This document shows positions 1 through 37,304 of a DNA stretch of 64,000 nt, in pieces (position 1 is the stretch's first letter; each line of letters begins with the position of its first letter). The notes below the pieces were generated by a model, which was not told where the DNA came from, made no database searches, and saw only the letters and a program-made list of their open reading frames with translations. A program made the translations under genes and the position numbers. The stretch comes from Actinomycetes bacterium. GTDB lineage: Bacteria; Actinomycetota; Acidimicrobiia; Acidimicrobiales; JAMCPL01. Location of the stretch: the NCBI GenBank assembly GCA_021846515.1, contig JAJZWU010000007.1, positions 13,505 through 77,504 of the forward strand, given 5' to 3'.

Positions 1-1
1 C

Positions 2-1402
2 ATGCCCGTGTTGGAAGATTTTGACCTTTCCGGCCATGGTCTGCGTTTCTTCAAGCCGTCTCTGCAAACAAAGTCGTATATAGGCGATGAAGAGGTTTGC
101 CTCTACCGCACTCTCGAAGACACAAGAGACTTCCTGGCCAGGACATCTCTATCTCTGGCCGATTCGTTCGCCAGAACCTCTATGAGTTTCAGGCGCATGG
201 TAGACGAGATAGTAGGTCCTGCTACCTACCTCCCCCCAATGCCACCACTTGACATGATAGACAGAATGGGTACCACCCCTACAGGCAACGAGCTGCTTGC
301 AGTATCTGAAGCGAGCCCTCATGAAGTCCTGGACGGAGCCAATCTGGATGACCCGCTTACCGCTACCCTGCTCTACATGGCATGCCAATGGGGAATATCT
401 CCGAGGGAGACTGGCATGGGGTTCATGGTCCCCCTGCTGGTGGACAGGGGCATGCAAAAGGCAATCTGCTATGGAGGCTCCCACCGGATGGCAAGTGCAC
501 TCTCACGAGAGTTTCTCCGAAGGGGAGGTACCATCCTGGACAATGCAGAGGTGGATTATATCGAGGTAGGAGATAATGGGGCCAGCGGCATTGGCATGGC
601 GGACGGAAGGGTTATAAAAGCCCGTAGAGCCGTAGTGTCCAGCCTGGATCCAGCGACCACTATGTTGCGCCTTCTCCCGGATGGATCTGTACCCGATGAA
701 ATGGTATCAGCACTTGGTGAATGGAAATGGGACAAGTGGTCGTTACTGACAGTATTTTTCGCACTGCAGGCAGGGGAACACAGGGACACATCATACGGCA
801 ACAACGAGCCTTTCGCTACGATACTGGGTTTTGACTCCTCCGATGACGTGATAGATGTTCTTGAGAGCGTGGAAGCAGGTGAAATATCGAAAATAGCCGG
901 CCATCTAACCATAGAATCCGAGCTCGACCCATGCCTGAAACCACGAAACGGGGAAAGGGTTGGATTCTTCCAGATGCCTGCACCTTACGACTACCCCTGG
1001 CAGGAAAACTCGAACAGCATCCTGCAGCAGGTACTCGACCTGCTGGGGGCGCATACACCAGGTATCCGGGAAGACCTGCTCGCAGTCAAGGTGGAAACGC
1101 CTGTGGATGTGGAGAGGCGATTAGCCTCTATGGTCAGGGGGTCAATCAAGCATGGTGACTATAACCCATTGCAGATGGGATACCTGAGGCCACACATCGA
1201 CTGCTCTGATACGCGCACCCCGGTGGAAGGACTCTACCTGTGTGGAGCATCTGTATATCCTGGTGGCATGATAATTGGTGGACCGGGATACCTTTGCGCC
1301 CGGGCAGTTATAAATGACTTGGGTATGGAATTCCCCTTCCCTGTCACCAAAAAGATGGAGTCTTACGCAAATACATACCTGGACGGCAACATAGAGTGGT
1401 AG
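2..1402 (+). CDS. Phytoene-desaturase-like FAD-dependent oxidoreductase (COG1233-type), 5'-truncated by the window edge
   Basis: GGSHRMASAL motif and C-terminal GLYLCGASVYPGGMIIGGPGY FAD motif; the N-terminal GxGxxG is missing, so it presumably lies upstream; clear paralog of 3785..5320. Confidence 0.85.
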   Translation: MPVLEDFDLSGHGLRFFKPSLQTKSYIGDEEVCLYRTLEDTRDFLARTSLSLADSFARTSMSFRRMVDEIVGPATYLPPMPPLDMIDRMGTTPTGNELLAVSEASPHEVLDGANLDDPLTATLLYMACQWGISPRETGMGFMVPLLVDRGMQKAICYGGSHRMASALSREFLRRGGTILDNAEVDYIEVGDNGASGIGMADGRVIKARRAVVSSLDPATTMLRLLPDGSVPDEMVSALGEWKWDKWSLLTVFFALQAGEHRDTSYGNNEPFATILGFDSSDDVIDVLESVEAGEISKIAGHLTIESELDPCLKPRNGERVGFFQMPAPYDYPWQENSNSILQQVLDLLGAHTPGIREDLLAVKVETPVDVERRLASMVRGSIKHGDYNPLQMGYLRPHIDCSDTRTPVEGLYLCGASVYPGGMIIGGPGYLCARAVINDLGMEFPFPVTKKMESYANTYLDGNIEW

Positions 1403-1509
1403 TGGCTGTACCTGTCAGCATAAGAGCAATCCACATTAAATCACCAAAATCGCCCCAAGGGACGTTACACAAGTAAAAATTGTAATAGGATATTAAAAGG
1501 AGACAACTC

Positions 1510-2043
1510 ATGAAATTATGGTCACGGGGACTTGGACGCAGAGAACTGATCATGGACTTCACTCACTACGCAGTACGTCGCTCTGATGATGGCGGCATAG
1601 AAATATTCGGAGTTACAGAACAGCCGGTGAGTTGGGAGTTCAGAGTTCACATTGAACAGGAAGATGTTCCGGGGTTGGTACATGTGGCTCTCTCTAAACC
1701 GGTAAGAAAAATGTTGATACGAAAGATACCCACAGCCATAGCCACCGTATGGAGAAGGCGCCGCTTCAAAGTACCTGAGGGATTGGAGGAACGGGTAAAG
1801 AACGCTCACTCACACGTAATGGAGAGGCAACGCATGAATCGCCAGATGATAGGTAGGAGGAATACCGGTGCTGTACCCATCACTGCAGATTCCGATGACC
1901 TTACCGATGATGCAGTAGATCTCGATGCTGGCACTACCCCCACCTATAACAATAAAGTTGCTTCCGGCAGTTCCAAAGTTGCCGACAATAAGGTTGCCGG
2001 TAATAACAACAAGACCACGGGAAGTGCAGTAGGGATCGGCTGA
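1510..2043 (+). CDS. Hypothetical protein (177 aa) inside the flavoprotein operon
   Basis: Strong RBS AAAAGGAG just upstream; its TGA stop overlaps the next ATG (TGATG at 2041-2045); globular-looking N-terminal ~110 aa and a low-complexity tail. Confidence 0.8.
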   Translation: MKLWSRGLGRRELIMDFTHYAVRRSDDGGIEIFGVTEQPVSWEFRVHIEQEDVPGLVHVALSKPVRKMLIRKIPTAIATVWRRRRFKVPEGLEERVKNAHSHVMERQRMNRQMIGRRNTGAVPITADSDDLTDDAVDLDAGTTPTYNNKVASGSSKVADNKVAGNNNKTTGSAVGIG

Positions 2044-3785
2044 TGGACTACGATGTTATAGTTATAGGTGGGGGAATCAACGGTTTGACAGCGGCAGCCT
2101 ACCTGGCAAAGTCAGGCTTAAAAGTCGGGGTTTTCGAGCGTAAAGGGCAGTGCGGGGCACATTGCGACAGCATAGAGCTGGGTATGCCCGGCTTCTGGCA
2201 TAATCTTCATGCGACATGGTTGATATGCGGCATGAGCCCGGCAATGGAGGACCTGGATTTGCCGGGGCATGGGCTGGAGCTTGTCGGTACCGATGTCGCC
2301 TATGCAAAAGAGTTTCTCGGGGGACGCAACTGCCTGATCTCTCCCGATCCGCTCACTACACTCGAAAGTATCTCCTCCGCATCTGCACACGATGCAGAGT
2401 TGCTTCAGCGCAGTGCCGCCTTTTTTATGGAGCACTGGAGCGACCTTCTCGACCAGATGAAGCTTTTTTTTGCCAGGCCGCCATCGGCGGAACTGAGCAA
2501 CTCTGTGTTGCTGGTAGAGGCAATGTTGAATCTAATGGACATAAAGATCGATCCATTTGAGTTTCAGGGAATGACCGGGTTCGAAGCACTTGACCTGATT
2601 TTCGAGTCAGAGGAGCTGAAGACTACCCTGGCATCACTGTCGTGGATAGGAGGCATACCACCGATTCATAGAAAAATTGGAGTGATGGGAGCACTTCTTC
2701 TCGGCTCATTTACCGGGACACTGTTTCCGGTACATCAAGCCACAGGCGGTTCACACGCACTCACTCATGCCCTGGTCAGATCAGTGGTGGACAATGGTGG
2801 GGAGATATGGACAAGCAGCGCGGTGGACAGGATCATTGTCGAAGACGGTAAGGCGGTAGGCATACACCTGCACCCGGACAGCCTGCTGGGAGATGTCGAG
2901 ATAAGAGCAAAGACAGTCCTTTCCAACCTCACCGTAGCACCCACCTTCACCAGACTTCTCAGCGAAGAAGTAATCGGCTCAGCCTGGGCGAATAAGATAA
3001 GAGCTTTCAGCTACGACGAACAGGTTCTATTTGGCGTATACTATGCCCTCTCCGGTGATCCCGAGTTCGCCTCTGCCGCACGGGCTCCAGGAGTACAACG
3101 CAGTTTTATGGGTTTCTTCGGCGGAGAAACAATGGAGGAATTACGCCGATTCGGTGTCAATCTTGTATCAGGAGTAATTGACGATACCATAGCCGGCAAC
3201 TGGTTCGTACCGACCAGAGCAGATCCGACGCAGGCTCCTCCCTCCATGCATACGTCATTCGTATGGCTGGATGTTCCACCTGCACCCAGGAAATGGCACG
3301 GCAAGTCACTGGGGGGCTGGAATGCATGGCCAGATATAGCAGAGAGCCTAGCTGACGAAGTTACCGATGCATATGAACTCTATGCTCCCGGATTCAAGGA
3401 TCTTATACTGGAAAGGTTTGTAATGACCCCACCAGATCAGGAACGCAATAATCCGTCGGCAGTTAGAGGCAACTGGATAGGTGGTTCGATGCTTCCGGAA
3501 CAGGTCTTCTACAATCGGCCCGTTCCGGGACTCATCCAGCAGGGATCGGCCTCACGGACGTTTATACCCAACTTGTACCTGTCCAACTCCATCCACCCCG
3601 GAGGAACCACCTGGCTCACCTCCGGATATCTGGCAGCAGTGGAGATAGCTCAAGACATGGGGACTTTCAGTACAGAGCTCTGGAATGCCCAGGCATTTAA
3701 CTGGTGCCTGGCCAACGCGGGATCCATACCGCTAAACAGAGGAGTAGCACCACGTTGGCTGAAGCAGAATACGGGAGGGAAGTAA
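2043..3785 (+). CDS. Phytoene-desaturase-like FAD-dependent oxidoreductase
   Basis: N-terminal DVIVIGGGINGLTAAAYLAK...VFER Rossmann motif, GGSHALTHAL, C-terminal NLYLSNSIHPGG. Confidence 0.88.
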   Translation: MDYDVIVIGGGINGLTAAAYLAKSGLKVGVFERKGQCGAHCDSIELGMPGFWHNLHATWLICGMSPAMEDLDLPGHGLELVGTDVAYAKEFLGGRNCLISPDPLTTLESISSASAHDAELLQRSAAFFMEHWSDLLDQMKLFFARPPSAELSNSVLLVEAMLNLMDIKIDPFEFQGMTGFEALDLIFESEELKTTLASLSWIGGIPPIHRKIGVMGALLLGSFTGTLFPVHQATGGSHALTHALVRSVVDNGGEIWTSSAVDRIIVEDGKAVGIHLHPDSLLGDVEIRAKTVLSNLTVAPTFTRLLSEEVIGSAWANKIRAFSYDEQVLFGVYYALSGDPEFASAARAPGVQRSFMGFFGGETMEELRRFGVNLVSGVIDDTIAGNWFVPTRADPTQAPPSMHTSFVWLDVPPAPRKWHGKSLGGWNAWPDIAESLADEVTDAYELYAPGFKDLILERFVMTPPDQERNNPSAVRGNWIGGSMLPEQVFYNRPVPGLIQQGSASRTFIPNLYLSNSIHPGGTTWLTSGYLAAVEIAQDMGTFSTELWNAQAFNWCLANAGSIPLNRGVAPRWLKQNTGGK

Positions 3786-5320
3786 TGAGTGCCGATTCGC
3801 AACACGATTACGATGCCATCATCATCGGAGGAGGGCCAAACGGGCTGATTGCTTCGTCATATCTGGCCAGAGCAGGCGCACGCGTACTTTTACTGGAAAG
3901 GCGCATAGAAACCGGTGGAGGACTGAACACAGATGAGTACTTTGGGTTTCGGTTCAATCTCCACGCTGTATACCACTTGATGGCCGATGTAATGCCGGCA
4001 TATAGAGACTTGGACCTTTCCGGCTATGGGCTCAGATACGTCACACCACCGTACGGAGCGGCATTCCTGCTCCCCGACAACCGTTCAATGCTGTTCAGCA
4101 ATGATCCTGCTGCAACGGCTGAGGAGATAAGGAAGTTCTCGAATACAGATGCTATACGATATGTCGATATGTGGAACAGCTTCCAGCCAATGCTTGATCA
4201 GTACCTCATACCGCTTACCTATGAGCTGCCAATGCCCCCACTGGAGCAGCTTGAGCTGATGGAACAGGATGAGGCGGGCCAGGAGATGGCACGTATCTCA
4301 GAAATGTCGTTTGTAGACATTCTGGATGACTACGGCTTTGAGAATACACACGTGAGGATGGCACTATTGAGCTTTCCTGCAATGTGGGGACTTGACCTTC
4401 ATGAACCATTGGGCTTTCTGTACCCACTGTATCTCTGCCGTATGCTCAATGCCGCTCTGGTAAAGGGTGGCTCACACCGCATGTCTTCAGCTATATACCG
4501 TTCCCTCGTTCATGCAGGTGGGGTTGTGCGCGACGCATGCCCGGCAGCATCACTGATCGTAGAAGATGGTACGGTAGTGGGAGTAAGGACTGCCGCCGGA
4601 GAGACCTTCCGGGCACCCCTGGTCATCTCCACACTCAATCCCGAACAGACATTTATCAACCTGCTCGGAGAAGAATACCTTGATGAAGCGTTGCAATCTG
4701 CGATATCCGGCTGGGAATGGGAACAGCGTAGCCTGTTCGGATTGCATCTGGGCATACGAGGTGATTTTTCCTATAAATCGGGAGACAACAGAGTGGATGA
4801 TGCACTGGTTGCATTCATGGGGCTATCCACCGAAGAAGATTTGCATTCTCACCTGGCTGGAGTAGACAGCGGAGAATTGAGCGGCACAGACTGGATACAT
4901 GTGACAGTACCAACCAGGTTCGACTCCACCCAGGCATCTGATGGATACCAGACTGTGCGCATAGAATCGGTTGCTTCATATTCGTCTCCATGGAATGAGA
5001 TTACACCGACATACGCTGAATCCTGCCTTAATCTGTTACATAAGTATGCCGACTTGGGGGAGATAGTAGTGCAACGAACATGCACCCCGGTCGATATTGA
5101 ACAGCGCCTTACCACCATGAAGCAGGGCTCCATAAAGCATGGCGCCTATACTCCCCTGCAACTTGGGTACTTCAGGCCAACCGAGCTGTGTTCCCAGATA
5201 GAGACCCCGGTACCCGGATTGTTGGTGGCGGGTGCTTCAGTCTATCCGGGTGGCATGATACTCGGAGGCCCCGGCTACCTGGGAGCCAAGGTCGCCATGG
5301 AACTGCTTGGTATCAGGTAA
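3785..5320 (+). CDS. Phytoene-desaturase-like FAD-dependent oxidoreductase
   Basis: DAIIIGGGPNGL...LLERR...GGG motif and C-terminal GASVYPGGMILGGPGY; start moved to ATG 3785 (TAATG overlap with the upstream stop, GGAGG upstream). Confidence 0.88.
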   Translation: MSADSQHDYDAIIIGGGPNGLIASSYLARAGARVLLLERRIETGGGLNTDEYFGFRFNLHAVYHLMADVMPAYRDLDLSGYGLRYVTPPYGAAFLLPDNRSMLFSNDPAATAEEIRKFSNTDAIRYVDMWNSFQPMLDQYLIPLTYELPMPPLEQLELMEQDEAGQEMARISEMSFVDILDDYGFENTHVRMALLSFPAMWGLDLHEPLGFLYPLYLCRMLNAALVKGGSHRMSSAIYRSLVHAGGVVRDACPAASLIVEDGTVVGVRTAAGETFRAPLVISTLNPEQTFINLLGEEYLDEALQSAISGWEWEQRSLFGLHLGIRGDFSYKSGDNRVDDALVAFMGLSTEEDLHSHLAGVDSGELSGTDWIHVTVPTRFDSTQASDGYQTVRIESVASYSSPWNEITPTYAESCLNLLHKYADLGEIVVQRTCTPVDIEQRLTTMKQGSIKHGAYTPLQLGYFRPTELCSQIETPVPGLLVAGASVYPGGMILGGPGYLGAKVAMELLGIR

Positions 5321-5861
5321 CCAAACGAAGCAGCGCCTGTCTGGCCTCTTCGGATCTATCTGCTTCCCTGGAAAGACGCTCGGCCAATCGTTGCGTCCAC
5401 TCCCCTACGCTAATCGTATCATGGCGTATGGCAATACCACCCATTACCTTGGCAACGGTAGGCACAAGCCGTCCTTTCTGCTTGGATATGGAGAACTGCT
5501 CCTCCTCCAGAATGACTATTACCTCAGATACGCTGCCATGACCCAGCAAGCCTGCCTTTTTGACCTGTACGGCTTCAGGCCATGCAGATCCCAATTGATC
5601 CGCCAGGTAGCCGAGCAGTAGTTGGTCATCCCTTGCCTGCTCGGCAAGGAGCTGAGCGAGCGCCGCTACCTCGTATCCCTGGACGTCGTTGCTGCCCGGT
5701 GGCTCTTCCAACCCCTGCATGTCGCTGCTGGAGATCTCGCTGCCAACGGGCATATTCACCAGTTCTCCCCCGCTAACACCCTCCTCGCGGGTAGAGGGTA
5801 TGTCCGAGTTGGGCACTGCATTACCGGATACTGAGTCAATGTCATCCATTTTCACCACCAT
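5313..5861 (-). CDS. Hypothetical protein (acidic N-terminus, alpha/beta C-terminal domain)
   Basis: 182-aa ORF downstream of miaA, convergent on the flavoprotein operon with an 8-nt overlap; no recognised motif. Confidence 0.7.
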   Translation of the reverse strand: MVVKMDDIDSVSGNAVPNSDIPSTREEGVSGGELVNMPVGSEISSSDMQGLEEPPGSNDVQGYEVAALAQLLAEQARDDQLLLGYLADQLGSAWPEAVQVKKAGLLGHGSVSEVIVILEEEQFSISKQKGRLVPTVAKVMGGIAIRHDTISVGEWTQRLAERLSREADRSEEARQALLRLVT

Positions 5862-8490: not shown

Positions 8491-8730
8491 TCACGTCACA
8501 CCTGAGTTGCGCTCTCCTCCTTGATCTATCTTAACCACGGGATATGGTTCCATCACTCCAAAGTGCCCAGGAACAAGTGAATATGCCACCACCGTGCCCG
8601 GCATAACAACACGAGTCCCGTCACTTATAGCCGTGCAGTGGAACCCGTAACCTTCAATAGTGCCCACACCCCTTGATTCATCATAGGAGTCGACTATACC
8701 AACAAACATGCGACCAGGATAAGCACTCAA
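8491..8730 (-). CDS. Small cold-shock (OB-fold)-like protein
   Basis: GIVDSYDESRGVGTI...FHCTAI resembles the RNP1/RNP2 layout of CSD proteins; overlaps the hisG stop; alternative ATG at 8709. Confidence 0.6.
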   Translation of the reverse strand: MSAYPGRMFVGIVDSYDESRGVGTIEGYGFHCTAISDGTRVVMPGTVVAYSLVPGHFGVMEPYPVVKIDQGGERNSGVT

Positions 8731-9662
8731 TGCACTACCTTCGAAATGGGTATCTCTACGATATCGCTGGCGCCGGCATCCTTCAACTCCGGTATAAGAG
8801 TATTTACATCTCTTTTCTCTATCACTGTCTCGACGGCATATCCCCCATCGCCTGCCAACTTGGATACGGTAGGTGATTTCATGGATGGCAATAACGCAAG
8901 AACTCCATTCAATCCTGATTCGACAACATTCAGCTTAATAAGAACCTTCCCCCGTGCTTCCAGTACCCCGGTCAAAAGAGTCATAATCTGCTCCATTGCG
9001 TGACGGCTATCGGGATCTTCTGCGCATTTTTTGTTCGTAATAAGCTCGGTGCGAGATACCAGCAATGTCGAAATAATCCTCAAACCGGCAGCCCTGAGCG
9101 CCCTACCGGTCTCGGTGATCTCCACCACCGCATCGACGATTTCCGGTACCTTCGCTTCCGTGGCACCGTAAGATAATTGAATATCTGCATCTATGCCCAA
9201 CTGATCAAAGTAGCGCCTGGTCAACTGTGGATATTCAGTAGAGATTTTCACTCCAGACGGCAGCTCACCGGGATCATTATAGGAAGAATCGCTCGATACT
9301 GCCAGTACAACGCGAATAGGATTTGCGGTGGCCTTTGAATAAGCCAGCTCGCCCAATGAGACCACGTCTGCTCCCGTCTCTTCTATCCAGTCACGACCCG
9401 TAATGCCAACATCGAATATTTCTCTCTCCACATAAGTAGGTATCTCCTGAGGTCGCAAAATCATCACTTCGCCTATACGGGGATCATCTATTTCTGCCCT
9501 GTAGTCGACAGAGGAGCTTCTGGACACAGCAAGATCTGCTGCTTCAAATAGTTCGAGAGTAGCCTTCTCAAGAGAACCCTTGGGCAGCACTATTCTGAGG
9601 TCGCGGCTTTTAGTCTTGGCAGGTGCACCGGTAGCATCACCTGCATAACTACCGGAACTCAC
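8727..9662 (-). CDS. hisG: ATP phosphoribosyltransferase (long form)
   Basis: LPKGSL, GITGRDW, SYGATE, ETGRALRAAGL, C-terminal regulatory domain. Confidence 0.95.
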   Translation of the reverse strand: MSSGSYAGDATGAPAKTKSRDLRIVLPKGSLEKATLELFEAADLAVSRSSSVDYRAEIDDPRIGEVMILRPQEIPTYVEREIFDVGITGRDWIEETGADVVSLGELAYSKATANPIRVVLAVSSDSSYNDPGELPSGVKISTEYPQLTRRYFDQLGIDADIQLSYGATEAKVPEIVDAVVEITETGRALRAAGLRIISTLLVSRTELITNKKCAEDPDSRHAMEQIMTLLTGVLEARGKVLIKLNVVESGLNGVLALLPSMKSPTVSKLAGDGGYAVETVIEKRDVNTLIPELKDAGASDIVEIPISKVVH

Positions 9663-10243
9663 GATTGAGCCTCTCTGGTAGACACAAGGTACCGGGAGAA
9701 CATATCTATCATCTCCAACGCAACGGTTACTGCCTCATAACCTTTATTGCCTGCCCCCTCCTCAGAACGCTCAAGAGCTTGACCCTCATTCTCGGTCGTC
9801 AGCACTCCAAAGATAACCGGCTTGTCTACCTCAAGCATTACCTGCCGGATTCCGGCAGCGCACTCGCCAGCCACATAATCGAAATGGGGAGTATCTCCCC
9901 TTATCACGGCTCCCAAACATACAATAGCGTCATAAGCATTACCGGAGGCCATCCGCCGTGCAGCCAGTGGAATCTCGAAGGCGCCGGGCACCCAGGCAAC
10001 ACTAACCAGGTGAGGCGAGATACCATACGCTTTAAGCCCCTCAAGTGCTCCATCAAATAGCCTCTTTGTAATTGACGAGTTGAATAATGAACAGACCAAT
10101 CCAATCCTGGCTCCTCTCGAGGCAGCCACCTTAGGATCCCCCCGGATAACCCTACCGACACCGGACTCTATCTCCTGCCACTCTTCGTCAGATAGACCTG
10201 GCAAACTCCGGTCAGACATACTGCCTAGATTAGAGGACATCAT
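9659..10243 (-). CDS. ribH: 6,7-dimethyl-8-ribityllumazine synthase
   Basis: WVPGAFEIP, LGAVIRGDTPHFDYV, GVLTT, NKGYEA. Confidence 0.96.
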   Translation of the reverse strand: MMSSNLGSMSDRSLPGLSDEEWQEIESGVGRVIRGDPKVAASRGARIGLVCSLFNSSITKRLFDGALEGLKAYGISPHLVSVAWVPGAFEIPLAARRMASGNAYDAIVCLGAVIRGDTPHFDYVAGECAAGIRQVMLEVDKPVIFGVLTTENEGQALERSEEGAGNKGYEAVTVALEMIDMFSRYLVSTREAQS

Positions 10244-11456
10244 CCAAGCCCTCTATTAGATGACCCATACGCTCTCGTTTTGTACGCAGGTATTTTATAT
10301 TCTCTGGATTCACAGCAGGAGGCAGAGCGACGCGTTCAGTGATTACCAACCCAAATCCATCCAATCCTCCGTATTTTGCAGGATTGTTCGTCATTAGCCT
10401 CATCCTGGTAACTCCTATGTCTGCAAGTATCTGAGACCCAATACCATACTCCCGCACATCCACCGGCAACCCGAGATCAAGGTTTGCATCGACAGTATCC
10501 CTACCCTGCTCCTGAAGGCTGTAGGCTCTCATCTTGTGTCCAAGCCCGATTCCACGTCCTTCATGGCCACGCAAATAGACTATTACCCCCCTACCCGCAT
10601 CCCCTATCATTGACATTGCCTGCTGGAGTTGAACGCCGCAGTCGCATCTCATGGAGCCAAATACGTCACCGGTCAGACATTCTGAATGAACACGAACCAG
10701 CACTGGCTCATCACCGGATACATCCCCCTTTACCAATGCAAAATGCTGCTCGCCGTCGAGCACCGATTCGTATACCATTCCCTCACAATCACCAATTGCA
10801 GTCGGTATTCTGGCCTTTGCAACAAGCTGCACCAATTTCTCGTTGCGTCTGCGGAACTTGATCAGATCAGCTATAGATATAATGGGTAGATCGTGATCAG
10901 ATGCAAATTGCTCGAGCTCTGGAAGCCTGGCCATACCCTTTTTGTCTGCACTGACGATTTCACACAACACTCCCCCTGGATAGAGGCCGGCTGCCTTGGC
11001 CAAGTCTACAGTAGCCTCTGTATGTCCGCCACGTTTCAACACCCCGCCCGGAGAATATCGTAACGGGAAGACATGACCGGGACGGTTAAAATCCTTTGGA
11101 AGGGACTCCGAATCTACAAGTGCTCTAATGGTAGCAGCCCTATCTGTAGAAGATATACCGGAGCTTGTGCCATGCCTGTAATCGACACTGACCGTAAAGG
11201 CCGTCCTCTGTGATTCTGTATTATATCTGTGCTCTATCATGAGTGGCAGGTCAAGCTCCTCCAGGCGTTCCGGGGTCAGTGGAACGCAGATGACCCCAGA
11301 GGTGTATTCCAGAAAAAAGGCAATCTTATCCGGCGTAACCGCTTCCGCGGCCATAACCAAATCACCTTCGTTCTCTCTATCCTCGTCGTCCACCACGACG
11401 GCCATACCACCGTTGCGAATTACCTCTATTGCTTCTTCTATGCTCGTCAATGCCAC
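10230..11456 (-). CDS. ribBA: Bifunctional DHBP synthase / GTP cyclohydrolase II
   Basis: DDEDRENEGD, GHTEA, RVHSECLTGDVFGSMRCDCG, HEGRGIG, TNNP. Confidence 0.96.
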   Translation of the reverse strand: MALTSIEEAIEVIRNGGMAVVVDDEDRENEGDLVMAAEAVTPDKIAFFLEYTSGVICVPLTPERLEELDLPLMIEHRYNTESQRTAFTVSVDYRHGTSSGISSTDRAATIRALVDSESLPKDFNRPGHVFPLRYSPGGVLKRGGHTEATVDLAKAAGLYPGGVLCEIVSADKKGMARLPELEQFASDHDLPIISIADLIKFRRRNEKLVQLVAKARIPTAIGDCEGMVYESVLDGEQHFALVKGDVSGDEPVLVRVHSECLTGDVFGSMRCDCGVQLQQAMSMIGDAGRGVIVYLRGHEGRGIGLGHKMRAYSLQEQGRDTVDANLDLGLPVDVREYGIGSQILADIGVTRMRLMTNNPAKYGGLDGFGLVITERVALPPAVNPENIKYLRTKRERMGHLIEGLDDVL

Positions 11457-12505
11457 CAGGCTCTCTCCTTGGGTTCTATAGATACCTTTATATCATCCCC
11501 CATCGGTGTCATTTCCACAAACCGGCCACGCCAAAGTGAATTCATATCCTGCACACCGGGACCGCTGAACATTGCTCTGGCATCATCTCCTCCGAACAAA
11601 ACTGGCGCCATATAGAACACATACCTATCTACCATGCCTGCATCATGAAACTCATGCGCTACCACAGATCCTCCTTCTACGAGTACCGACATGTAGCCTT
11701 CTTCAGCCAATCCCCGTAATAAATCAGCTACATCACCATCATACTCCAGAGCTGGCAGTACACGAGCACCTTGGGGAATCTTTCCAAGTACGATTCGTAG
11801 TGGCTGGCGCGCCAGCTGATCGCCACCCTCTCTGGCGGTGAGTTGCGGATCGTCGGCACGTACTGTTCCCGCACCGGTGATTATTACATCACTGCGCGAT
11901 CTCATCAAATGCACATCCTCACGGGCAACCTCCCCGGTAATCCATTGGCTGGATCCATCGGGAGCAGCAATCCTTCCATCAGCAGATATGGCCAGTTTAA
12001 GAGTCACCCAGGGAACTCCCGCTACTCTGTGCTTTATATAGGGCATCAATGACTCCTCTACTTCATTGGCCAGTAGCCCTACCTCCACCTCAATGCCGAC
12101 ATCCTCTAATTTCTTGATACCTGATCCGTTTACCTTCGGGTCAGGGTCCTGTATCGCTACGACGACCCTCTTTACACCGGCTTCAATGATTGAATTCACA
12201 CATGGTGGCGTACGGCCATAATGGCTGCATGGTTCCAGAGTCACGTAAAGTGTAGAGCCTTCAGCTGACTTGCCTGCATTTTTTACCGCATCCAGAACTA
12301 CTATTTCAGCATGCCTGCCGGGAGGCGGCTCAGTGAAACCTTCAAAGACCTCTCCGTCACGATCAATGAGTACTGCACCTACCCAGGGGTTTGGAGAGGT
12401 TGTGCCTGCAATGCTCGATGCCAATTCCAATGCAGCACGCATCATAGTTTCATCTGAAGGGATATCCGATTGTGAAGGTACCACTATACCTACCATAATA
12501 GCCAA
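11447..12505 (-). CDS. ribD: Diaminohydroxyphosphoribosylaminopyrimidine deaminase/reductase
   Basis: PNPWVGA, HAE, TLEPCSHYGRTPPC, SQWIT, VEGG; exact start uncertain. Confidence 0.95.
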   Translation of the reverse strand: MAIMVGIVVPSQSDIPSDETMMRAALELASSIAGTTSPNPWVGAVLIDRDGEVFEGFTEPPPGRHAEIVVLDAVKNAGKSAEGSTLYVTLEPCSHYGRTPPCVNSIIEAGVKRVVVAIQDPDPKVNGSGIKKLEDVGIEVEVGLLANEVEESLMPYIKHRVAGVPWVTLKLAISADGRIAAPDGSSQWITGEVAREDVHLMRSRSDVIITGAGTVRADDPQLTAREGGDQLARQPLRIVLGKIPQGARVLPALEYDGDVADLLRGLAEEGYMSVLVEGGSVVAHEFHDAGMVDRYVFYMAPVLFGGDDARAMFSGPGVQDMNSLWRGRFVEMTPMGDDIKVSIEPKERAWWH

Positions 12506-14699: not shown

Positions 14700-16724
14700 A
14701 TGCAACAGGAAACTCATAACGCTCAACAAGGATCCAGTAAAACAACAGTAGATACAGACATAGAAGACCTATGTGTAGCGGTCATAAGGGGCCTTGCAAT
14801 GGATATGCCCCAGCGTGCAAACTCCGGTCACCCCGGTACAGCAATGGCGCTTGCCCCGCTTGCTCATGTCTTGTTCTCACGCATAATGACTCACGATCCA
14901 TCAGATCCTCAATGGCCGGATAGGGATAGGTTCGTTCTGTCCTGTGGACACGCTTCGGTATTGCTCTACAGCATGCTCTACCTGACAGGCTATGGGCTTA
15001 CGATAGATGATCTCAAAAGCTTCCGCCAATTGGGGAGTATTACTCCGGGCCATCCCGAAGTCGGGCTCACTCCAGGGGTCGAGATCACTACAGGTCCGCT
15101 GGGACAGGGGTTGGCTACATCGGTAGGAATGGCAGTTGCAGAGCGATTCTTGAGATCAAAGGTAGGATCAGAGTTGGTAGACCATCATACATATGTGATC
15201 TGTTCTGATGGTGACCTCATGGAGGGGATCAGTCACGAAGCAGCTTCATTTGCCGGTCATCAGAGACTCGGAAGGCTTGTATGCATATACGACGACAATC
15301 ATATAACTATCGACGGATCTACCGATCTGGCCTACAGCGATAACGTGGCAGGACGCTTTGAATCATACGGCTGGCATGTAATGCCCATCGGCGAAGTGGC
15401 TGAAGACCGTAGAGTTCTACAATCTGCAATCGAAACGGCAAAAAATGACGAGAGGCCATCTATGATCATTCTACGCAGCCATATTGGATGGCCATCGCCA
15501 CACAAACACGATACATCTGCAGCACACGGCGAGCCATTGGGTGTAGACGAAGTCAGAGAGACCAAAGAAATACTCAGACTACCTGAAGATCAGGAAATGT
15601 ACGTACCGGAGTCTGTCCTGGACTTCTACCGGAAAGCAGTTGCACCAAAATCCGCTGTCCGCCAAAGCTGGGAATCCAGATTGAAGTCGGCTCCTCAAGA
15701 AACAGCAGAACTGTGGAAATCATTGCACAATCCTCCTCCAAGGTCATGGCAACAGTCATTACCAATCTTCGCTACCGGTACCGCTGTAGCAACCAGGGCT
15801 GGGTTAAAAAAGTGCATCGGGTCCACAAAACAATACCTGCCAGGGCTACTTGCCGGATCTGCCGATCTTACCGGCAACACGGGAGTTGAATTGGAAGACG
15901 CTTCGCAACTATCAGCCGACTATCCTGCAGGCACTCAAGTGCACTTCGGTATCAGGGAACATGCAATGGCAGCCACCATGCTCGGAGCATCTCGCCACGG
16001 TGGCATACTGCCGGTAGGAGGAACTTTTTTTGTATTCAGTGACTACATGAAGCCATCAGTTAGACTGGCTGCGCTCACCCACAGCCATGTAATCTATTCC
16101 TGGACTCACGATTCTATCGGACTGGGAGAAGATGGACCCACGCATCAACCTATAGAACATCTAATGGCTATGCGTGCTATGCCGGGTATCGTGATCATCC
16201 GTCCGGCAGATGCAAACGAATGCTCCCAAGCCTGGCGTATCGCAGTAGAGCATGACGGCCCAGTCGGGCTGGTACTTTCACGACAACCCCTGGAGGTACT
16301 ACCCGGCACTTCTGACCCGCTGGAAAATAGAACCCTGGAAAACGAAGGCGTAGCCAGAGGAGCTTATGTACTGGCCGAATCGGAAGAAACTCCCGACATT
16401 GTACTGACAGCAAGTGGCAGTGAAGTAGCCCTATGCCTACAAGCCAGAGAGGTTTTGAAAAATAGTGGGCGAAACGCAAGGGTAGTTTCATTCCCCTCCT
16501 GGGAGATCTTTGAAAAACAGGACGAAGACTATAAAAAACATATATTTCCACCCGGAGTCCCAACTCTTGCAGTTGAAGCCGGAAGCAAACTGGGTTGGGA
16601 CCGTTATGCCACCAAAGTAATCGGCATGGAATCTTTTGGTGCATCTGCACCCGGTGCACAGGTAATGGAAAAATTTGGCTTTACGGTAGAAAATGTCAGC
16701 GCAGAGGCACTTACATTACTGTAG
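14700..16724 (+). CDS. tkt: Transketolase
   Basis: SGHPG, DRDRFVLSCGH, TTGPLGQG, DGDLMEG, THDSIGLGEDGPTHQP; ATG 14700 preferred (TACACT 6 nt upstream). Confidence 0.97.
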   Translation: MQQETHNAQQGSSKTTVDTDIEDLCVAVIRGLAMDMPQRANSGHPGTAMALAPLAHVLFSRIMTHDPSDPQWPDRDRFVLSCGHASVLLYSMLYLTGYGLTIDDLKSFRQLGSITPGHPEVGLTPGVEITTGPLGQGLATSVGMAVAERFLRSKVGSELVDHHTYVICSDGDLMEGISHEAASFAGHQRLGRLVCIYDDNHITIDGSTDLAYSDNVAGRFESYGWHVMPIGEVAEDRRVLQSAIETAKNDERPSMIILRSHIGWPSPHKHDTSAAHGEPLGVDEVRETKEILRLPEDQEMYVPESVLDFYRKAVAPKSAVRQSWESRLKSAPQETAELWKSLHNPPPRSWQQSLPIFATGTAVATRAGLKKCIGSTKQYLPGLLAGSADLTGNTGVELEDASQLSADYPAGTQVHFGIREHAMAATMLGASRHGGILPVGGTFFVFSDYMKPSVRLAALTHSHVIYSWTHDSIGLGEDGPTHQPIEHLMAMRAMPGIVIIRPADANECSQAWRIAVEHDGPVGLVLSRQPLEVLPGTSDPLENRTLENEGVARGAYVLAESEETPDIVLTASGSEVALCLQAREVLKNSGRNARVVSFPSWEIFEKQDEDYKKHIFPPGVPTLAVEAGSKLGWDRYATKVIGMESFGASAPGAQVMEKFGFTVENVSAEALTLL

Positions 16725-29814: not shown

Positions 29815-29907
29815 TATGCTGACTACACTACCACTGGCTGATTTGGCAGAAAAATATTTACCTGTATGGTAATTTGCACCAGGGTTTCTTGGCACTACAC
29901 TTGGTTA

Positions 29908-31857
29908 ATGATAATGAGTAATGTTCCCAAGCCAGAGGATGTGCAGGCAACCTTTTGCCTGACATTGGTAGATGAGTGGGTGCGCGGGGGGATAGAGCAC
30001 GCCGTAGTCTGCCCAGGATCCAGGTCGACTCCACTGGCATTGGCACTTGAAGCAAATCCGCGTGTCAATATCCATGTGCATCTCGATGAACGTTCCGCCG
30101 GATTTGTGGGATTGGGAATTGCCTTGGCCACAGGGATTCCTGCAATTATATGCGTGACCAGTGGAACTGCTGCAGCGGAGCTTCACCCAAGTGTGGTCGA
30201 GGCGCATCATCAGGGAGTGCCATTGATTGTATGTACTGCAGATAGGCCATCAGAGCTAAGAAGTGTCGGAGCACCTCAGACCGTCGATCAGAACATAATA
30301 TATACCACTTCAGCCAGATACTACCTTGATATACCTCCAGCTGGGTGGGAGATGAGAGCCATGTGGAGATCATTGGCTGCAAGAGCGTATAGCGAGGCAC
30401 TATACAGTCCTTATGGCCCAGGACCCGTCCATCTAAATTGCCAGTTTCGTGAACCCCTGGTTGGCCAATATCTGGACATGCCCGCCGGTAGACCTGACGG
30501 CAGGATGTGGCATTCTATTGTCAGTCGACGCATGGATGGTGGTAGTGTTGCCTTTGAACATGTAACAGGCACTGACACTACCGGTAGCTCAGATGTACTG
30601 ACTGGCAATGCCGACGAGGGTCTATCCACCGAGCTTTTAATTCACAATATTGTCAGCAAGGCTAAAGGGATCATTGTGGTTGGGCAGTTGCCTCCAGATG
30701 TACTCGACGAGAGAATGTCTATTATTAAGTTGGCCAGAGCGCTTGGTTGGCCGTTGCTTGCCGATCCATTATCCATGTGTAGGACTTCCGATCCTGAGGT
30801 AATTGCCGGAGCTGATGCTATATTGCAAGATGCTGATGTGCGTTCACGTCTACGTCCTGATGCAGTTATCAGATTCGGCAAACCCTGGGCATCAAAGACT
30901 CTGAATAACTGGCTGGCTGAATTGGGTGATAGCGGCGTAGAGCAATTGCTGGTAGATCCCTACTGGCAATGGAGTGACCCGGGACGGGTGTCGTCTTTCA
31001 TCGCCGACCACAAACCAGTGTCGCTTCTCAGGGCAGTGGAAAATAACTCAGCCATTATCAGAGATAACCAAGATTGGCTGCAGCTTTGGCAAGTGGCCGA
31101 TGCGGCCGTACAGGAGGGTATTGACAAGTGGTGTATGGATCATGATGAAATTACAGGTGTTGGATTGGCCAGGGAAGTATTTGCGCGCTGCGCCGGTAAG
31201 GCAACATTAGTAGTGTCTTCATCCATGCCCGTCCGCGACGCTGAGCGCTTCGCCCAAAAGCTTGAGAGTCCACCGAAGGTCTTCTCTAACCGAGGCGCCA
31301 ACGGTATTGATGGTGTAGTTTCAACTGCCAGAGGAATTGCTGAATCCGGGAAGTGGCGCCAAACTGTTGTATGGGTAGGTGATCTTGCCTTCTTCCACGA
31401 CTTGACTGCTCTACTGCGTACTGCCGGCCAATCGACACCCGACAACCGGCTAACCGTGATCGTTATGGACAATGGTGGCGGAGGAATATTCTCGTTCCTA
31501 TCCCAAGCTGAAAAACTGGATAGCCACACTATGGAGAGATTGTTTACGACAAAACAGGAACAGAACGTTGTAGAGATCGCAAAGAGTCTTGGCGCAAAGG
31601 TAGTTAGCGTAGATACCATGGAGGGAGTACGAGCGGCGCTTCGAGATCATGTAGTTGGCCTGGAGGCAGATGGCCCTCTCCCCCTGGAGGATTCCACTGC
31701 CAGTACACCGGTTAATATATCTAGCCACGATATAAGCTTGATAACGGTGATTCACGCAAATGCCCCCAGCGTACTGGAGTCGGCGCAGATCCAGCTTGAA
31801 TTACAACGGCAAATCTCTGGACACTCGCTACAAGCTGTTATCGCCGAAAGTTCTTAG
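29908..31857 (+). CDS. menD: SEPHCHC synthase
   Basis: CPGSRSTPLA, DERSAGF, TSGTA, TADRP, SSMPVRD, NRGANGIDG, GDLAFFHD, NGGGGIF. Confidence 0.95.
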   Translation: MIMSNVPKPEDVQATFCLTLVDEWVRGGIEHAVVCPGSRSTPLALALEANPRVNIHVHLDERSAGFVGLGIALATGIPAIICVTSGTAAAELHPSVVEAHHQGVPLIVCTADRPSELRSVGAPQTVDQNIIYTTSARYYLDIPPAGWEMRAMWRSLAARAYSEALYSPYGPGPVHLNCQFREPLVGQYLDMPAGRPDGRMWHSIVSRRMDGGSVAFEHVTGTDTTGSSDVLTGNADEGLSTELLIHNIVSKAKGIIVVGQLPPDVLDERMSIIKLARALGWPLLADPLSMCRTSDPEVIAGADAILQDADVRSRLRPDAVIRFGKPWASKTLNNWLAELGDSGVEQLLVDPYWQWSDPGRVSSFIADHKPVSLLRAVENNSAIIRDNQDWLQLWQVADAAVQEGIDKWCMDHDEITGVGLAREVFARCAGKATLVVSSSMPVRDAERFAQKLESPPKVFSNRGANGIDGVVSTARGIAESGKWRQTVVWVGDLAFFHDLTALLRTAGQSTPDNRLTVIVMDNGGGGIFSFLSQAEKLDSHTMERLFTTKQEQNVVEIAKSLGAKVVSVDTMEGVRAALRDHVVGLEADGPLPLEDSTASTPVNISSHDISLITVIHANAPSVLESAQIQLELQRQISGHSLQAVIAESS

Positions 31858-36395: not shown

Positions 36396-37304
36396 TCAAA
36401 TCAGCAATCCGGCTACAAGAAGCAGCCCTGCGAGCATCTCCAAAAATGCGGTAGAGCCAAGTAGCGCCAAAAGGTCACGACCGGTCAACCGAGAAAGGGC
36501 AAGTGGTACACTACGTTTAGTCACCGCAAAAGCAACCAGTGCCAACAGCACCCAAGGACGATACACGCTTATAAGAACAATACCTATCGCGGCACATAAA
36601 AGCACTCCCACGTACATCATACCTGCCCTACTTCTTCCCAAGCGGACGGCAAGAGTCAATTTATTCTCCCTCCTGTCGCCCTCTATGTCCCTTAAATTAT
36701 TTGCCTGTAAAATAGCCACTGCCAACATTCCCACGGGTATTGAAGCCAGTAGCCCCTCTATCCAGTAAAGATGACCATCACCCACTACATAAGCACTCCC
36801 TACCGTAGCAACTACGCCAAAGAAGATAAATACAAACAGCTCTCCAAATCCAAGACTGGCGTATGGTTTTGGCCCACTCGAATATCCTATCGCGGCGATG
36901 CCGGCAAGTGCCCCCACAATCAATATCCACCACTGATCGATCATTGCCGCCAATAAAAGGCCACAGATACCGGCTACAGTCATCGAAACCAACGCTGCAA
37001 ATGCAACCTGTTTGGGAGGAACAGATCCAGAAGCGGTCAGCCGCGAGGGGCCTGTCCTCTCTCTATCCCTACCCGCCACCCCGTCAGAATAATCGTTTGC
37101 ATAGTTCACACCTATCTGCAATGAGACAGAAACCAACAGAGCTAGAAACGCTCTTATCCACTGATCAGCACTCAGGCCATGAGCGAAGCCAACGGCACCG
37201 GAATGCCTACTTGCTACCAGAGCTACGCCTACTGCAACAGGTACTGCTGCAGCAACAAGAGTACGCGGCCTGGCTCCGGCAACCCACAGCTTAAAATAAC
37301 TCAT
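36396..37304 (-). CDS. menA: 1,4-dihydroxy-2-naphthoate polyprenyltransferase
   Basis: GARPRTL, QIGVNYANDYSD, ANNLRDIEGD, KLTLAVRLG; multiple TM segments. Confidence 0.94.
   Translation of the reverse strand: MSYFKLWVAGARPRTLVAAAVPVAVGVALVASRHSGAVGFAHGLSADQWIRAFLALLVSVSLQIGVNYANDYSDGVAGRDRERTGPSRLTASGSVPPKQVAFAALVSMTVAGICGLLLAAMIDQWWILIVGALAGIAAIGYSSGPKPYASLGFGELFVFIFFGVVATVGSAYVVGDGHLYWIEGLLASIPVGMLAVAILQANNLRDIEGDRRENKLTLAVRLGRSRAGMMYVGVLLCAAIGIVLISVYRPWVLLALVAFAVTKRSVPLALSRLTGRDLLALLGSTAFLEMLAGLLLVAGLLI

What the first reader, a model, noticed from the sequence alone, without database searches (positions are those of the whole stretch)
2..5320. Three paralogous phytoene-desaturase-like flavoproteins plus an unknown small protein: candidate undescribed multi-subunit dehydrogenase
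Seen: three COG1233-type FAD oxidoreductases in tandem. The small ORF and the last two flavoproteins are linked by stop/start overlaps (TGATG, TAATG). Genes 1 and 3 share long motifs (GGSHRM, TPVDxExRL..M..GSIKHG.Y.PLQ.GY.RP, GASVYPGGMI.GGPGY), while gene 2 is diverged. No crtB/crtE/crtY or hopanoid genes occur in the window. Known: this fold includes non-carotenoid enzymes such as the heterodimeric limonene dehydrogenase CtmAB and human PYROXD2. Inference: a hetero-oligomeric, O2-independent flavo-dehydrogenase or hydroxylase acting on an unknown lipophilic or amine substrate.
Basis: partly seen in the sequence, partly recalled or inferred. Interest (0 to 1): 0.7.

Follow-up and report, generated by a model that had tools for sequence, protein, structure and literature searches.

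The report
Sterol-desaturase-like flavoenzyme pairs plus helper
The locus encodes two two-subunit flavin enzymes of a family first characterised in 2024 (oxygen-independent sterol side-chain desaturase, limonene dehydrogenase), plus a small conserved companion protein of unknown role.

Summary
The ORFs, overlaps and shared motifs are real, but the window edge cuts the locus. Upstream DNA shows four paralogous flavoproteins, not three. They form two alpha/beta pairs: A1-B1 (ATGA overlap), a gap, then S-A2-B2.

[quoted passage not shown] They branch inside those subunits' clades. All four proteins keep the histidine that carries the covalent flavin. The enzyme kind is therefore already described, as a relative of CtmAB. 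This scan found the same family before on other DNA.

Three things are less ordinary:
- The small protein S is a real gene with no Pfam family (core dN/dS 0.08). It accompanies these pairs across phyla, including beside the characterised enzyme's genes, and the passages I searched in the 2024 paper do not mention it.
- A1-B1 is an uncharacterised sister clade.
- I found no molybdenum hydroxylase, KstD, P450 or carotenoid genes in this 92%-complete genome, so the substrate here need not be a sterol.

Two congeners carry a deletion scar that fuses S to the end of B2.

Verdict: a new member of a known kind, of moderate interest.

The parts
1..1402 (+). B1, C-terminal 466 of 555 residues: beta-type subunit of the first pair. 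The gene starts 265 nt upstream of the window, at L003:13239. Its partner A1 (580 aa, L003:11500-13242, about window -2004..-262) lies wholly upstream and overlaps B1 by ATGA.
   Evidence: 36% identical to delta24-SD beta. B1 clade is sister to B2. Flavinylation His kept (GYYANTHA). dN/dS 0.053 against a congener.
1510..2043 (+). S: small basic protein (177 aa, 19.7 kDa, pI 9.8). It has a conserved N-terminal core of about 110 residues (MKLWSRGLGRRELxMDF...) and a fast-evolving low-complexity tail. AAAGGAGA lies before the start, and the stop overlaps the A2 start (TGATG).
   Evidence: No Pfam or NCBIfam family. 278 cluster representatives at E<=1e-3. Sits beside alpha/beta pairs across phyla. 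Core dN/dS 0.080. No solved fold match.
2043..3785 (+). A2: alpha-type subunit (580 aa, 62.9 kDa) of the second pair. Probable orthologue of delta-24 steroid desaturase alpha.
   Evidence: 50% identity over 573 aa to WP_067170564.1 (P0144). Inside its clade. Motif GFWHNLHA. dN/dS 0.039.
3785..5320 (+). B2: beta-type subunit (511 aa, 56.2 kDa) of the second pair. The start ATG overlaps the A2 stop (TAATG). Probable orthologue of delta-24 steroid desaturase beta.
   Evidence: 55% identity over 505 aa without gaps to WP_067170561.1 (P0129). Inside its clade. Motif GFRFNLHA, identical to the reference. CrtI/CrtD-like fold. dN/dS 0.074.

Best explanation
The locus is a five-gene block, A1-B1 / S-A2-B2. 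It begins about 2 kb upstream of the window.

It encodes two heteromeric (alpha-beta)n flavoenzymes of the CtmAB / delta-24-steroid-desaturase family. These are CrtI-fold proteins in which each subunit binds a flavin covalently through a conserved N-terminal histidine. They oxidise a C-H next to a C=C bond without O2 and pass the electrons to a still unknown acceptor.

- Shown: A2-B2 belongs to the orthologous group of the characterised sterol side-chain delta-24 desaturase.
- Shown: A1-B1 is a separate, uncharacterised pair, and its beta is the sister clade of B2.
- Shown: S is a dedicated small companion protein of this enzyme family. Its role as an assembly or flavinylation helper, or as a loosely bound third subunit, is inferred.
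- Inferred: the chemistry is allylic dehydrogenation (desaturation), or for A1-B1 possibly water-dependent allylic hydroxylation as in CtmAB, on an unsaturated isoprenoid-type lipid.
- Open: whether that lipid is a delta-22 sterol in this organism. My odds are about 0.3.
For: - Identity: A2 is 50% identical to delta24-SD alpha and B2 is 55% identical to beta, over full length. The references were identified by accession and named as the purified enzyme in PMC11061730. For comparison, delta24-SD versus CtmA/B is 34/38% (paper).
- Trees: the reference alpha lies inside the A2 clade and the reference beta inside the B2 clade (FastTree on 218 rows, supports 99 and 100). An IQ-TREE on 51 of those 218 rows, picked at random within clades, gives A2 98, B2 93, A1 99, B1 99.
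- Sizes: 62.9 and 56.2 kDa, against 63 and 57 kDa for the purified subunits.
- Flavinylation His of the motif G-F-L/R-X-N/S-T/L-H-A: kept in A1 23/24, B1 20/20, A2 69/70 and B2 78/79 rows, and in all four window proteins. It is absent from the outgroup paralogue C (0/25).
- Gene order: A2-type lies directly upstream of B2-type in 63 of 80 related loci.
- S near the pairs: an S-family gene is present in 40 of 53 loci that have room upstream, and directly upstream on the same strand in 19.
- S across genomes: present in 41 of 50 genomes bearing the pair.
- S among the window's relatives: found in 9 of 41 genomes. These are the 7 with a B2 match plus two deletion scars, and it is in 0 of the other 32.
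- S also sits before more diverged alpha'/beta' pairs.
- Purifying selection: dN/dS is 0.02-0.08 for all four enzymes and for the S core.
Against: - No biochemistry exists for this organism.
- Sterol-pathway partners were not found in this 92%-complete genome. The only Molybdopterin-family match is NuoG-like. There is no KstD-like match beyond Rossmann fragments and no P450.
- By contrast, an ethylbenzene-dehydrogenase-like Mo enzyme occurs in 42 of 50 other genomes bearing the pair, and a strong KstD-like gene (E<=1e-140) in 27 of 50.
- 50-55% identity does not fix substrate specificity.
- The purified delta24-SD showed only two bands, so S is not shown to be a subunit.
- The cluster is dispensable: it is lost in 2 of 4 congeners.
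Confidence: 0.75

Rival explanations
1. A2-B2 does exactly what it does in Sterolibacterium. It desaturates the side chain of delta-22 sterols (stigmasterol, ergosterol or brassicasterol derivatives) at C24-C25, as part of sterol catabolism or scavenging.
For: Orthologue-level identity and clade membership. In 6 of 80 related loci an ethylbenzene-dehydrogenase-like Mo enzyme, the kind used for sterol C25/C26 hydroxylation, lies next to the pair. 42 of 50 genomes with the pair hold such enzymes, often 10-21 matches each. An earlier finding of this scan placed a 67-69% identical pair in a sterol-degradation island.
Against: This genome, and its nearest relatives with the same five-gene block (the genomes of L004, L005, L008 and L032), gave no such Mo enzyme and no KstD-like gene. 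No P450 was found either. The genome is small at 2.27 Mb. The flanking genes are housekeeping or signalling genes.
Confidence: 0.3
2. All four flavoproteins plus S assemble into one large mixed hetero-oligomer.
For: The genes are tightly packed and co-oriented. A1-B1 lies beside A2-B2 in 19 of 80 loci. The characterised enzyme is itself a large alpha4beta4 assembly (paper).
Against: A2-B2 stands without A1-B1 in most loci, and Sterolibacterium-type genomes have no A1-type gene (0 of G022, G023, G029, G033). A 107-nt gap with its own ribosome-binding site separates B1 from S. A1-type genes are often multi-copy elsewhere in genomes.
Confidence: 0.1
3. They are carotenoid or other isoprenoid biosynthetic enzymes of the CrtI/CrtD/CrtO type.
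For: The best NCBIfam matches are CrtO and crtI_fam. The best solved fold is a gamma-carotenoid desaturase, 4rep (TM 0.74), followed by CrtI 4dgk.
Against: Scores are 52-148 bits against cut-offs of 238 (crtI_fam) and 1000 (CrtO). No phytoene/squalene synthase was found in the genome. The proteins carry the covalent-flavin His motif of the CtmAB group.
Confidence: 0.03

Closest known systems
Delta-24 steroid desaturase (delta24-SD) of Sterolibacterium denitrificans, alpha WP_067170564 / beta WP_067170561 (PMC11061730)
   Same: Adjacent alpha and beta genes of the same sizes. 50% and 55% identity to A2 and B2, in the same clades. The same covalent-flavin His motif in both subunits. An S-family gene lies directly upstream of alpha in Sterolibacterium loci whose proteins share 90% clusters with the enzyme (L030, L047).
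   Different: Here a second pair (A1-B1) sits upstream. I found no molybdenum C25/C26 hydroxylase or KstD-type gene in the genome. The host is a small-genome member of the Actinomycetota, going by the record titles of the nearest loci. Activity, cofactor and quaternary structure are untested.
Limonene dehydrogenase CtmAB of Castellaniella defragrans (PMC4109377; the JBC 2018 paper on the enzyme is recalled, not read)
   Same: A two-subunit COG1233 flavoenzyme that acts on an allylic position without O2. According to PMC11061730 it has the same His motif. The ctm operon holds small hypothetical genes ctmC and ctmD with no known relatives, which could correspond to S.
   Different: No ferredoxin or ferredoxin-reductase genes (ctmEF) lie beside the pairs here. 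CtmAB hydroxylates, whereas delta24-SD desaturates.
CrtI-type phytoene desaturases / CrtD / CrtO
   Same: Overall fold (4rep TM 0.74, 4dgk) and the N-terminal dinucleotide-binding motif.
   Different: About 15-17% identity to the solved members. Scores are far under the family cut-offs. The organisation is heteromeric, the flavin is covalent, and there is no carotenoid context.

Membership tests
CtmAB / delta24-SD family of heteromeric covalent-flavin dehydrogenases | Two adjacent paralogous genes, alpha about 63 kDa and beta about 57 kDa, 26-27% identical to each other | tested here: met
   A2 is 62.9 kDa and B2 is 56.2 kDa, 29% identical, with a TAATG overlap. A1 is 63.8 kDa and B1 is 61.0 kDa, 27% identical, with an ATGA overlap. 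The reference alpha and beta are 26-27% identical.
CtmAB / delta24-SD family of heteromeric covalent-flavin dehydrogenases | Conserved histidine in the N-terminal motif G-F-L/R-X-N/S-T/L-H-A in both subunits (site of covalent FMN; PMC11061730) | tested here: met
   A2 GFWHNLHA, B2 GFRFNLHA, B1 GYYANTHA, A1 GFSIDPHA. His is kept in 23/24, 20/20, 69/70 and 78/79 rows of the A1, B1, A2 and B2 clades. The A1 and B1 motifs depart at other positions.
CtmAB / delta24-SD family of heteromeric covalent-flavin dehydrogenases | Sequence relationship to a characterised member | tested here: met
   A2 is 50% identical to alpha and B2 is 55% identical to beta, over full length, and both lie inside the reference clades. 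A1 is 26% and B1 is 36% identical to alpha and beta. CtmA/B themselves could not be compared.
CtmAB / delta24-SD family of heteromeric covalent-flavin dehydrogenases | Covalently bound flavin, semiquinone resting state, alpha4beta4 assembly | not testable with these tools
   Needs purified protein. The AF2 model of B2 is least confident exactly at the His-motif loop (residues 40-63) and the GSIKHG loop (448-466).
Delta-24 steroid desaturase (function: delta-22 sterol side-chain desaturation) | Sterol-degradation context: Mo-dependent C25/C26 hydroxylase and a ring-A dehydrogenase (KstD/AcmB type) in the genome | tested here: not met
   In the own genome the only PF00384 match is NuoG-like, and there is no KstD-like match beyond short Rossmann pieces. 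The genome is 92% complete, so absence is not proven.
CrtI-family phytoene desaturases (TIGR02734) | Score over the curated cut-off (238.1 bits) | tested here: not met
   52.1 bits (B1 part), 59.7 bits (A2) and 75.6 bits (B2). No match over the cut-off anywhere in the genome.
CrtI-family phytoene desaturases (TIGR02734) | Carotenoid pathway partners (phytoene synthase) | tested here: not met
   No PF00494 match in the genome. The control search matched in 8 of 14 control genomes.
Beta-carotene ketolase CrtO (NF045689) | Score over the curated cut-off (1000 bits) | tested here: not met
   104.5, 147.9 and 134.4 bits.
Limonene dehydrogenase CtmAB proper | Companion 2Fe-2S ferredoxin and ferredoxin reductase genes (ctmEF) in the operon | tested here: not met
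   The upstream neighbours are a GGDEF-EAL protein and an amino-acid-permease-family transporter. Downstream lie a 182-aa ORF without a family, then miaA and miaB.

The most novel reading that the evidence does not exclude
The five-gene block is a self-contained, molybdenum-independent 'desaturate then hydroxylate' module. A2-B2 makes a conjugated diene. The uncharacterised A1-B1 pair, like CtmAB, then adds water to the allylic methyl group, replacing the Mo hydroxylase that Sterolibacterium needs. S is an obligatory, so far overlooked third component (flavinylation or assembly factor, or small subunit) of the whole CtmAB/delta24-SD enzyme family, including the enzyme published in 2024.

Leads:
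- All 8 of the 8 genomes without the Mo enzyme carry an A1-type gene, against 22 of the 42 with it. These genomes are kin, so this is not a statistical test.
- Sterolibacterium-type genomes have no A1-type gene.
- S co-occurs with the pairs.
Probability: 0.2. Interest if true: 0.65.

Novelty: new member of a known kind. Interest (0 to 1): 0.4.

Why it matters
The family is one of the few known ways to attack unactivated isoprenoid C-H bonds without oxygen, and only two members have been studied. This locus adds three testable points:
- The characterised enzyme's genes travel with a small conserved protein that the passages I searched in the 2024 paper do not mention.
- A sister pair (A1-B1) of unknown reaction is often coupled to the known pair.
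- The pair also lives in small genomes where I found none of the rest of the sterol pathway, which suggests a wider substrate range.

None of this changes the basic classification.

Tried and rejected
- Complex prediction (S with A2) was not available, so S binding is untested.
- S fold: Foldseek against the PDB gave no match at E<=0.001. VIA-align wide gave a best Z of 4.5 (COMM domain), then Pur-alpha at 3.5, all within the noise range stated by the tool. The ESM Atlas gave only unnamed 'hypothetical protein' clusters.
- Sequence search of the PDB with A2 and B2 gave only N-terminal Rossmann matches. No structure of this enzyme family is in that copy.
- RNA evidence: no RNA holder was listed, and read laying was not used.
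- CtmA/CtmB could not be obtained by any tool, so the relation of A1-B1 to CtmAB is untested.
- Follow-up papers: a search for '24-steroid desaturase', 'delta-24 desaturase', '24-SD' and 'CtmAB' (2018 onwards) returned only PMC11061730 and the Castellaniella papers as relevant.
- Supplements of PMC11061730 (phylogeny Figs S10/S11, Table S2) were closed. They may already show Acidimicrobiales relatives like these.
- Context in the nearest relatives (L008, L032) and in an Acidimicrobiia locus (L054) gave no pathway clue beyond TetR, SDR and acyl-CoA dehydrogenase genes.
- The rhodopsin search is uninformative because the control matched nowhere.
- My first ORF-based clustering picked antisense ORFs in high-GC loci (one search failed). 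It was replaced by tblastn-anchored rows.
Full report
**1. What is in the sequence.**

The window is G000:C25:13505-77504. On its + strand lie these ORFs:
- 2..1402, whose start lies upstream of the window;
- 1510..2043 (S, 177 aa);
- 2043..3785 (A2, 580 aa);
- 3785..5320 (B2, 511 aa from the ATG that overlaps the A2 stop).

The overlaps TGATG (S/A2) and TAATG (A2/B2) are there, and so are the motifs shared by gene 1 and gene 3.

The 13.5 kb upstream of the window (L003) change the picture.
- Gene 1 (B1) is 555 aa long and starts 265 nt before the window.
- It overlaps by ATGA a fourth paralogue, A1 (580 aa, L003:11500-13242).
- Pairwise identities are B1-B2 37%, A1-A2 28%, and all cross pairs 27-29%.
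- The anatomy is therefore A1-B1, a 107-nt gap holding a strong ribosome-binding site, then S-A2-B2.

Upstream of A1 lie an amino-acid-permease-family transporter, a GAF-GGDEF-EAL protein, and tig-clpP-clpX on the other strand. Downstream lie a 182-aa ORF without a family, miaA, miaB, hisG, the riboflavin genes, pentose-phosphate genes, an FbiC-like gene and menaquinone genes. None of these neighbours suggests a pathway for the flavoproteins.

**2. Which family.**

Pfam and NCBIfam give only generic FAD-binding and amine-oxidase domains, plus CrtO and crtI_fam scores far below the curated cut-offs. The PDB holds no close sequence relative.

A literature search for limonene dehydrogenase led to PMC11061730 (JBC 2024; I read passages, and the supplements were closed). 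It describes the delta-24 steroid desaturase of Sterolibacterium denitrificans:
- adjacent alpha (63 kDa, WP_067170564) and beta (57 kDa, WP_067170561) genes, 26% identical to each other;
- about 440 kDa, read as alpha4beta4;
- FMN bound covalently in both subunits to a histidine of the motif G-F-L/R-X-N/S-T/L-H-A;
- 34% and 38% identity to CtmA and CtmB;
- nearest relatives named in Sterolibacterium, Pseudomonadales, Halieaceae, Acidimicrobiales and Deltaproteobacteria.

B2 has a very large set of uncharacterised relatives. There were 725 proteins at E<=1e-10 among 7999 candidates scored, and the best 120 listed are named only 'phytoene desaturase family' or 'NAD(P)/FAD-dependent oxidoreductase'.

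A scan of species-representative genomes gave 101 relatives, of which the best 80 were kept as loci L004-L083. They include Sterolibacterium MAGs at 55% identity.

An exact look-up of the Sterolibacterium proteins put them in the same 90% clusters as WP_067170561.1 and WP_067170564.1. That gave me the characterised sequences as P0129 and P0144.

| Window protein | Identity to alpha (P0144) | Identity to beta (P0129) |
|---|---|---|
| A2 | 50% over 573 aa | – |
| B2 | – | 55% over 505 aa, no gaps |
| A1 | 26% | – |
| B1 | – | 36% |

**3. Trees and motif.**

From tblastn-anchored rows of all 80 loci, plus the four window proteins and the two references (218 rows), FastTree gives five clades: A1, B1, A2, B2 and an outgroup paralogue C.
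- The reference alpha lies inside a 59-row A2 set that also holds the window's A2 (support 99).
- The reference beta lies inside a 67-row B2 set that also holds the window's B2 (support 100).
- An IQ-TREE on 51 of the 218 rows, picked at random within clades, keeps each clade as one branch: A2 98, B2 93, A1 99, B1 99, C 100. It places B1 as sister of B2 (100).
- The position of A1 relative to the others is not resolved.

The flavinylation histidine is kept in 23/24 A1, 20/20 B1, 69/70 A2 and 78/79 B2 rows, and in 0/25 C rows.

The AF2 model of B2 (pLDDT 82.4) has a CrtI/CrtD-type fold. The best solved match is 4rep (TM 0.74, 17% identity), followed by 4dgk. It is least confident at the His-motif loop and the GSIKHG loop.

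**4. Conservation of the arrangement.**

| Feature | Count among the 80 loci |
|---|---|
| At least 75%-length A2-type gene | 65 |
| A2-type 3-211 nt upstream of a B2-type gene | 63 |
| Adjacent A1-B1 pair | 19 |
| C paralogue | 22 |

The exact block A1-B1-S-A2-B2 recurs in L004, L005 and L032. L008 has the same block, but no S was detected in the locus.

Among 41 genomes of the window's order (own genome included), 7 have a B2 match at E<=1e-60. Within the genus, 2 of the 4 other species have it.

The two congeners without it (G052, G054; 93% and 91% complete) keep the flanking genes. They carry a scar: a 117-aa ORF in which the first 55 or so residues of S run in frame into the last 60 or so residues of B2. 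A1-B1 is also missing there. The block is therefore ancestral in the genus and dispensable.

Where it is kept it is under strong purifying selection. dN/dS against the congener locus L004:

| Gene | dN/dS |
|---|---|
| A1 | 0.021 |
| B1 | 0.053 |
| A2 | 0.039 |
| B2 | 0.074 |
| S core | 0.080 |

dS is about 1 throughout.

**5. The small protein S.**

S has no Pfam or NCBIfam family. Its relatives are all 'hypothetical protein'. A profile search of 1.84 billion cluster representatives finds 278 at E<=1e-3 and 128 at E<=1e-10. Nearly all are short proteins matched from residue 1.

The conserved core is about 110 residues, beginning M-[KR]-L-[WKR]-S-[RK]-G-L-G. The model has five short strands followed by helices (pLDDT 77.7). 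The tail is low-complexity and variable. No solved fold matches convincingly.

Its link to the enzyme genes is strong.
- Of 53 loci with a full A2-type gene and more than 700 nt upstream, 40 hold an S gene: 19 directly upstream on the same strand, 9 divergent, 4 upstream of A1 and 8 elsewhere in the locus.
- These include the Sterolibacterium loci L030, L040 and L047.
- 41 of 50 genomes bearing the pair have S.
- Among the window's 41 relatives, S occurs in the same 7 genomes that have B2, plus the two scars, and in none of the other 32.
- Weaker S-like genes stand directly before more diverged alpha'/beta' pairs (29-33% and 37-38% identical to A2 and B2).

A term search of PMC11061730 found no occurrence of 'hypothetical' or 'adjacent' and no passage about a third gene. 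The ctm operon of Castellaniella has two small orphan genes, ctmC and ctmD (PMC4109377, Table 1), which I could not compare.

That S belongs functionally to this enzyme family is shown by co-occurrence. What S does is inference. It is small and basic (pI 9.8) while the enzymes are acidic (pI 4.6-5.1). Roles as a flavinylation or assembly helper, or as a loosely bound subunit, both fit.

**6. What substrate.**

| Gene sought | Query | Result |
|---|---|---|
| Mo enzyme, ethylbenzene-dehydrogenase type | L045:7545-10541; best PDB match 2ivf at E 1e-146 | 42 of 50 genomes, often 10-21 matches each |
| KstD-like gene | NF009478 | strong match (E<=1e-140) in 27 of 50 |

Such a Mo enzyme lies beside the pair in 6 of the 80 loci. 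This fits the published pathway, in which delta24-SD works with a Mo-dependent C26 hydroxylase.

The window's genome is different.
- Its only Molybdopterin-family match is NuoG-like.
- There is no KstD-like gene, no P450 and no phytoene/squalene synthase.
- Its nearest relatives with the same block (the genomes of L004, L005, L008 and L032) also gave no Mo enzyme and no KstD-like match.

The genome is 92% complete, so these are 'not found', not 'absent'.

I therefore commit to the family and mechanism, but give only about 0.3 to a delta-22 sterol as the substrate here.

One lead bears on A1-B1. All 8 of the 8 Mo-free genomes have an A1-type gene, against 22 of the 42 Mo-positive ones, and the four Sterolibacterium/Rhodocyclaceae genomes have none. 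These genomes are kin, so this is a hint only. It may mean that A1-B1 does the allylic hydroxylation in place of the Mo enzyme, as CtmAB does for limonene.

**7. Comparison and verdict.**

'Undescribed' and 'three-subunit' were not.

This scan reached the same family call on other DNA (finding e1-2073909). That note did not enter my evidence.

What remains new is at the level of detail: the S companion gene, the uncharacterised A1-B1 clade coupled to the known pair, and the occurrence in small genomes in which no other sterol-pathway gene was found.

Noticed in passing
L084:401-754 (G052:C15:6600-6953); also G054:C21, about 14790-15364: Two congeners that lack the flavoprotein block carry a deletion scar. 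It is an intact 117-aa ORF made of S residues 1 to about 55 fused in frame to the last 60 or so residues of B2. A1-B1 is also missing between the transporter gene and S. In G054 the S remnant has a stop.
   Followed up: partly
L058:6686-8167, L013:6644-8116 and 20 further loci (22 of 80): A fifth paralogue 'C' (about 490 aa, Pfam Amino_oxidase) sits between B1 and A2 in many Acidimicrobiia loci. It lacks the flavinylation histidine (0 of 25 rows). In L051, L053, L059, L062 and L067 it stands directly before B2, and no A2-type gene is found in the locus.
   Followed up: partly
genomes G006-G020, G026, G028, G031 (handles): Genomes titled Binatia, Myxococcota and 'Deltaproteobacteria' MAGs that carry the A2-B2 pair hold 10-21 matches each to an ethylbenzene-dehydrogenase-like Mo enzyme. 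This is an unusually large paralogue family.
   Followed up: no
window 3902-3973 and 5126-5182 (B2 residues 40-63 and 448-466): In the AF2 model of B2, the two most conserved stretches are the least confident (pLDDT under 50). They are the loop with the flavinylation His and the GSIKHG...LQLGYFRP loop. They may order only with the flavin or the partner subunit.
   Followed up: no
window 8727-12505 (- strand): hisG followed by a riboflavin operon (ribH, ribBA, ribD) lies 3.4 kb downstream of the flavoenzyme block, on the other strand. This is probably coincidence.
   Followed up: no
window 31927-36381 (+): A 1484-aa protein with a pro-kumamolisin activation domain and an IPT/TIG domain, probably a large secreted sedolisin-type protease. 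It sits amid menaquinone genes (MenD-like 29866-31857, UbiA family 36396-37304, MenB-like 37326-38219, AMP-ligase 38411-39583).
   Followed up: no
window 5313-5861 (-): A 182-aa ORF without a Pfam family, convergent with B2 and overlapping its stop by 8 nt. It is conserved in L004 and L005, and its DNA is also kept in the congeners that lost the block.
   Followed up: no
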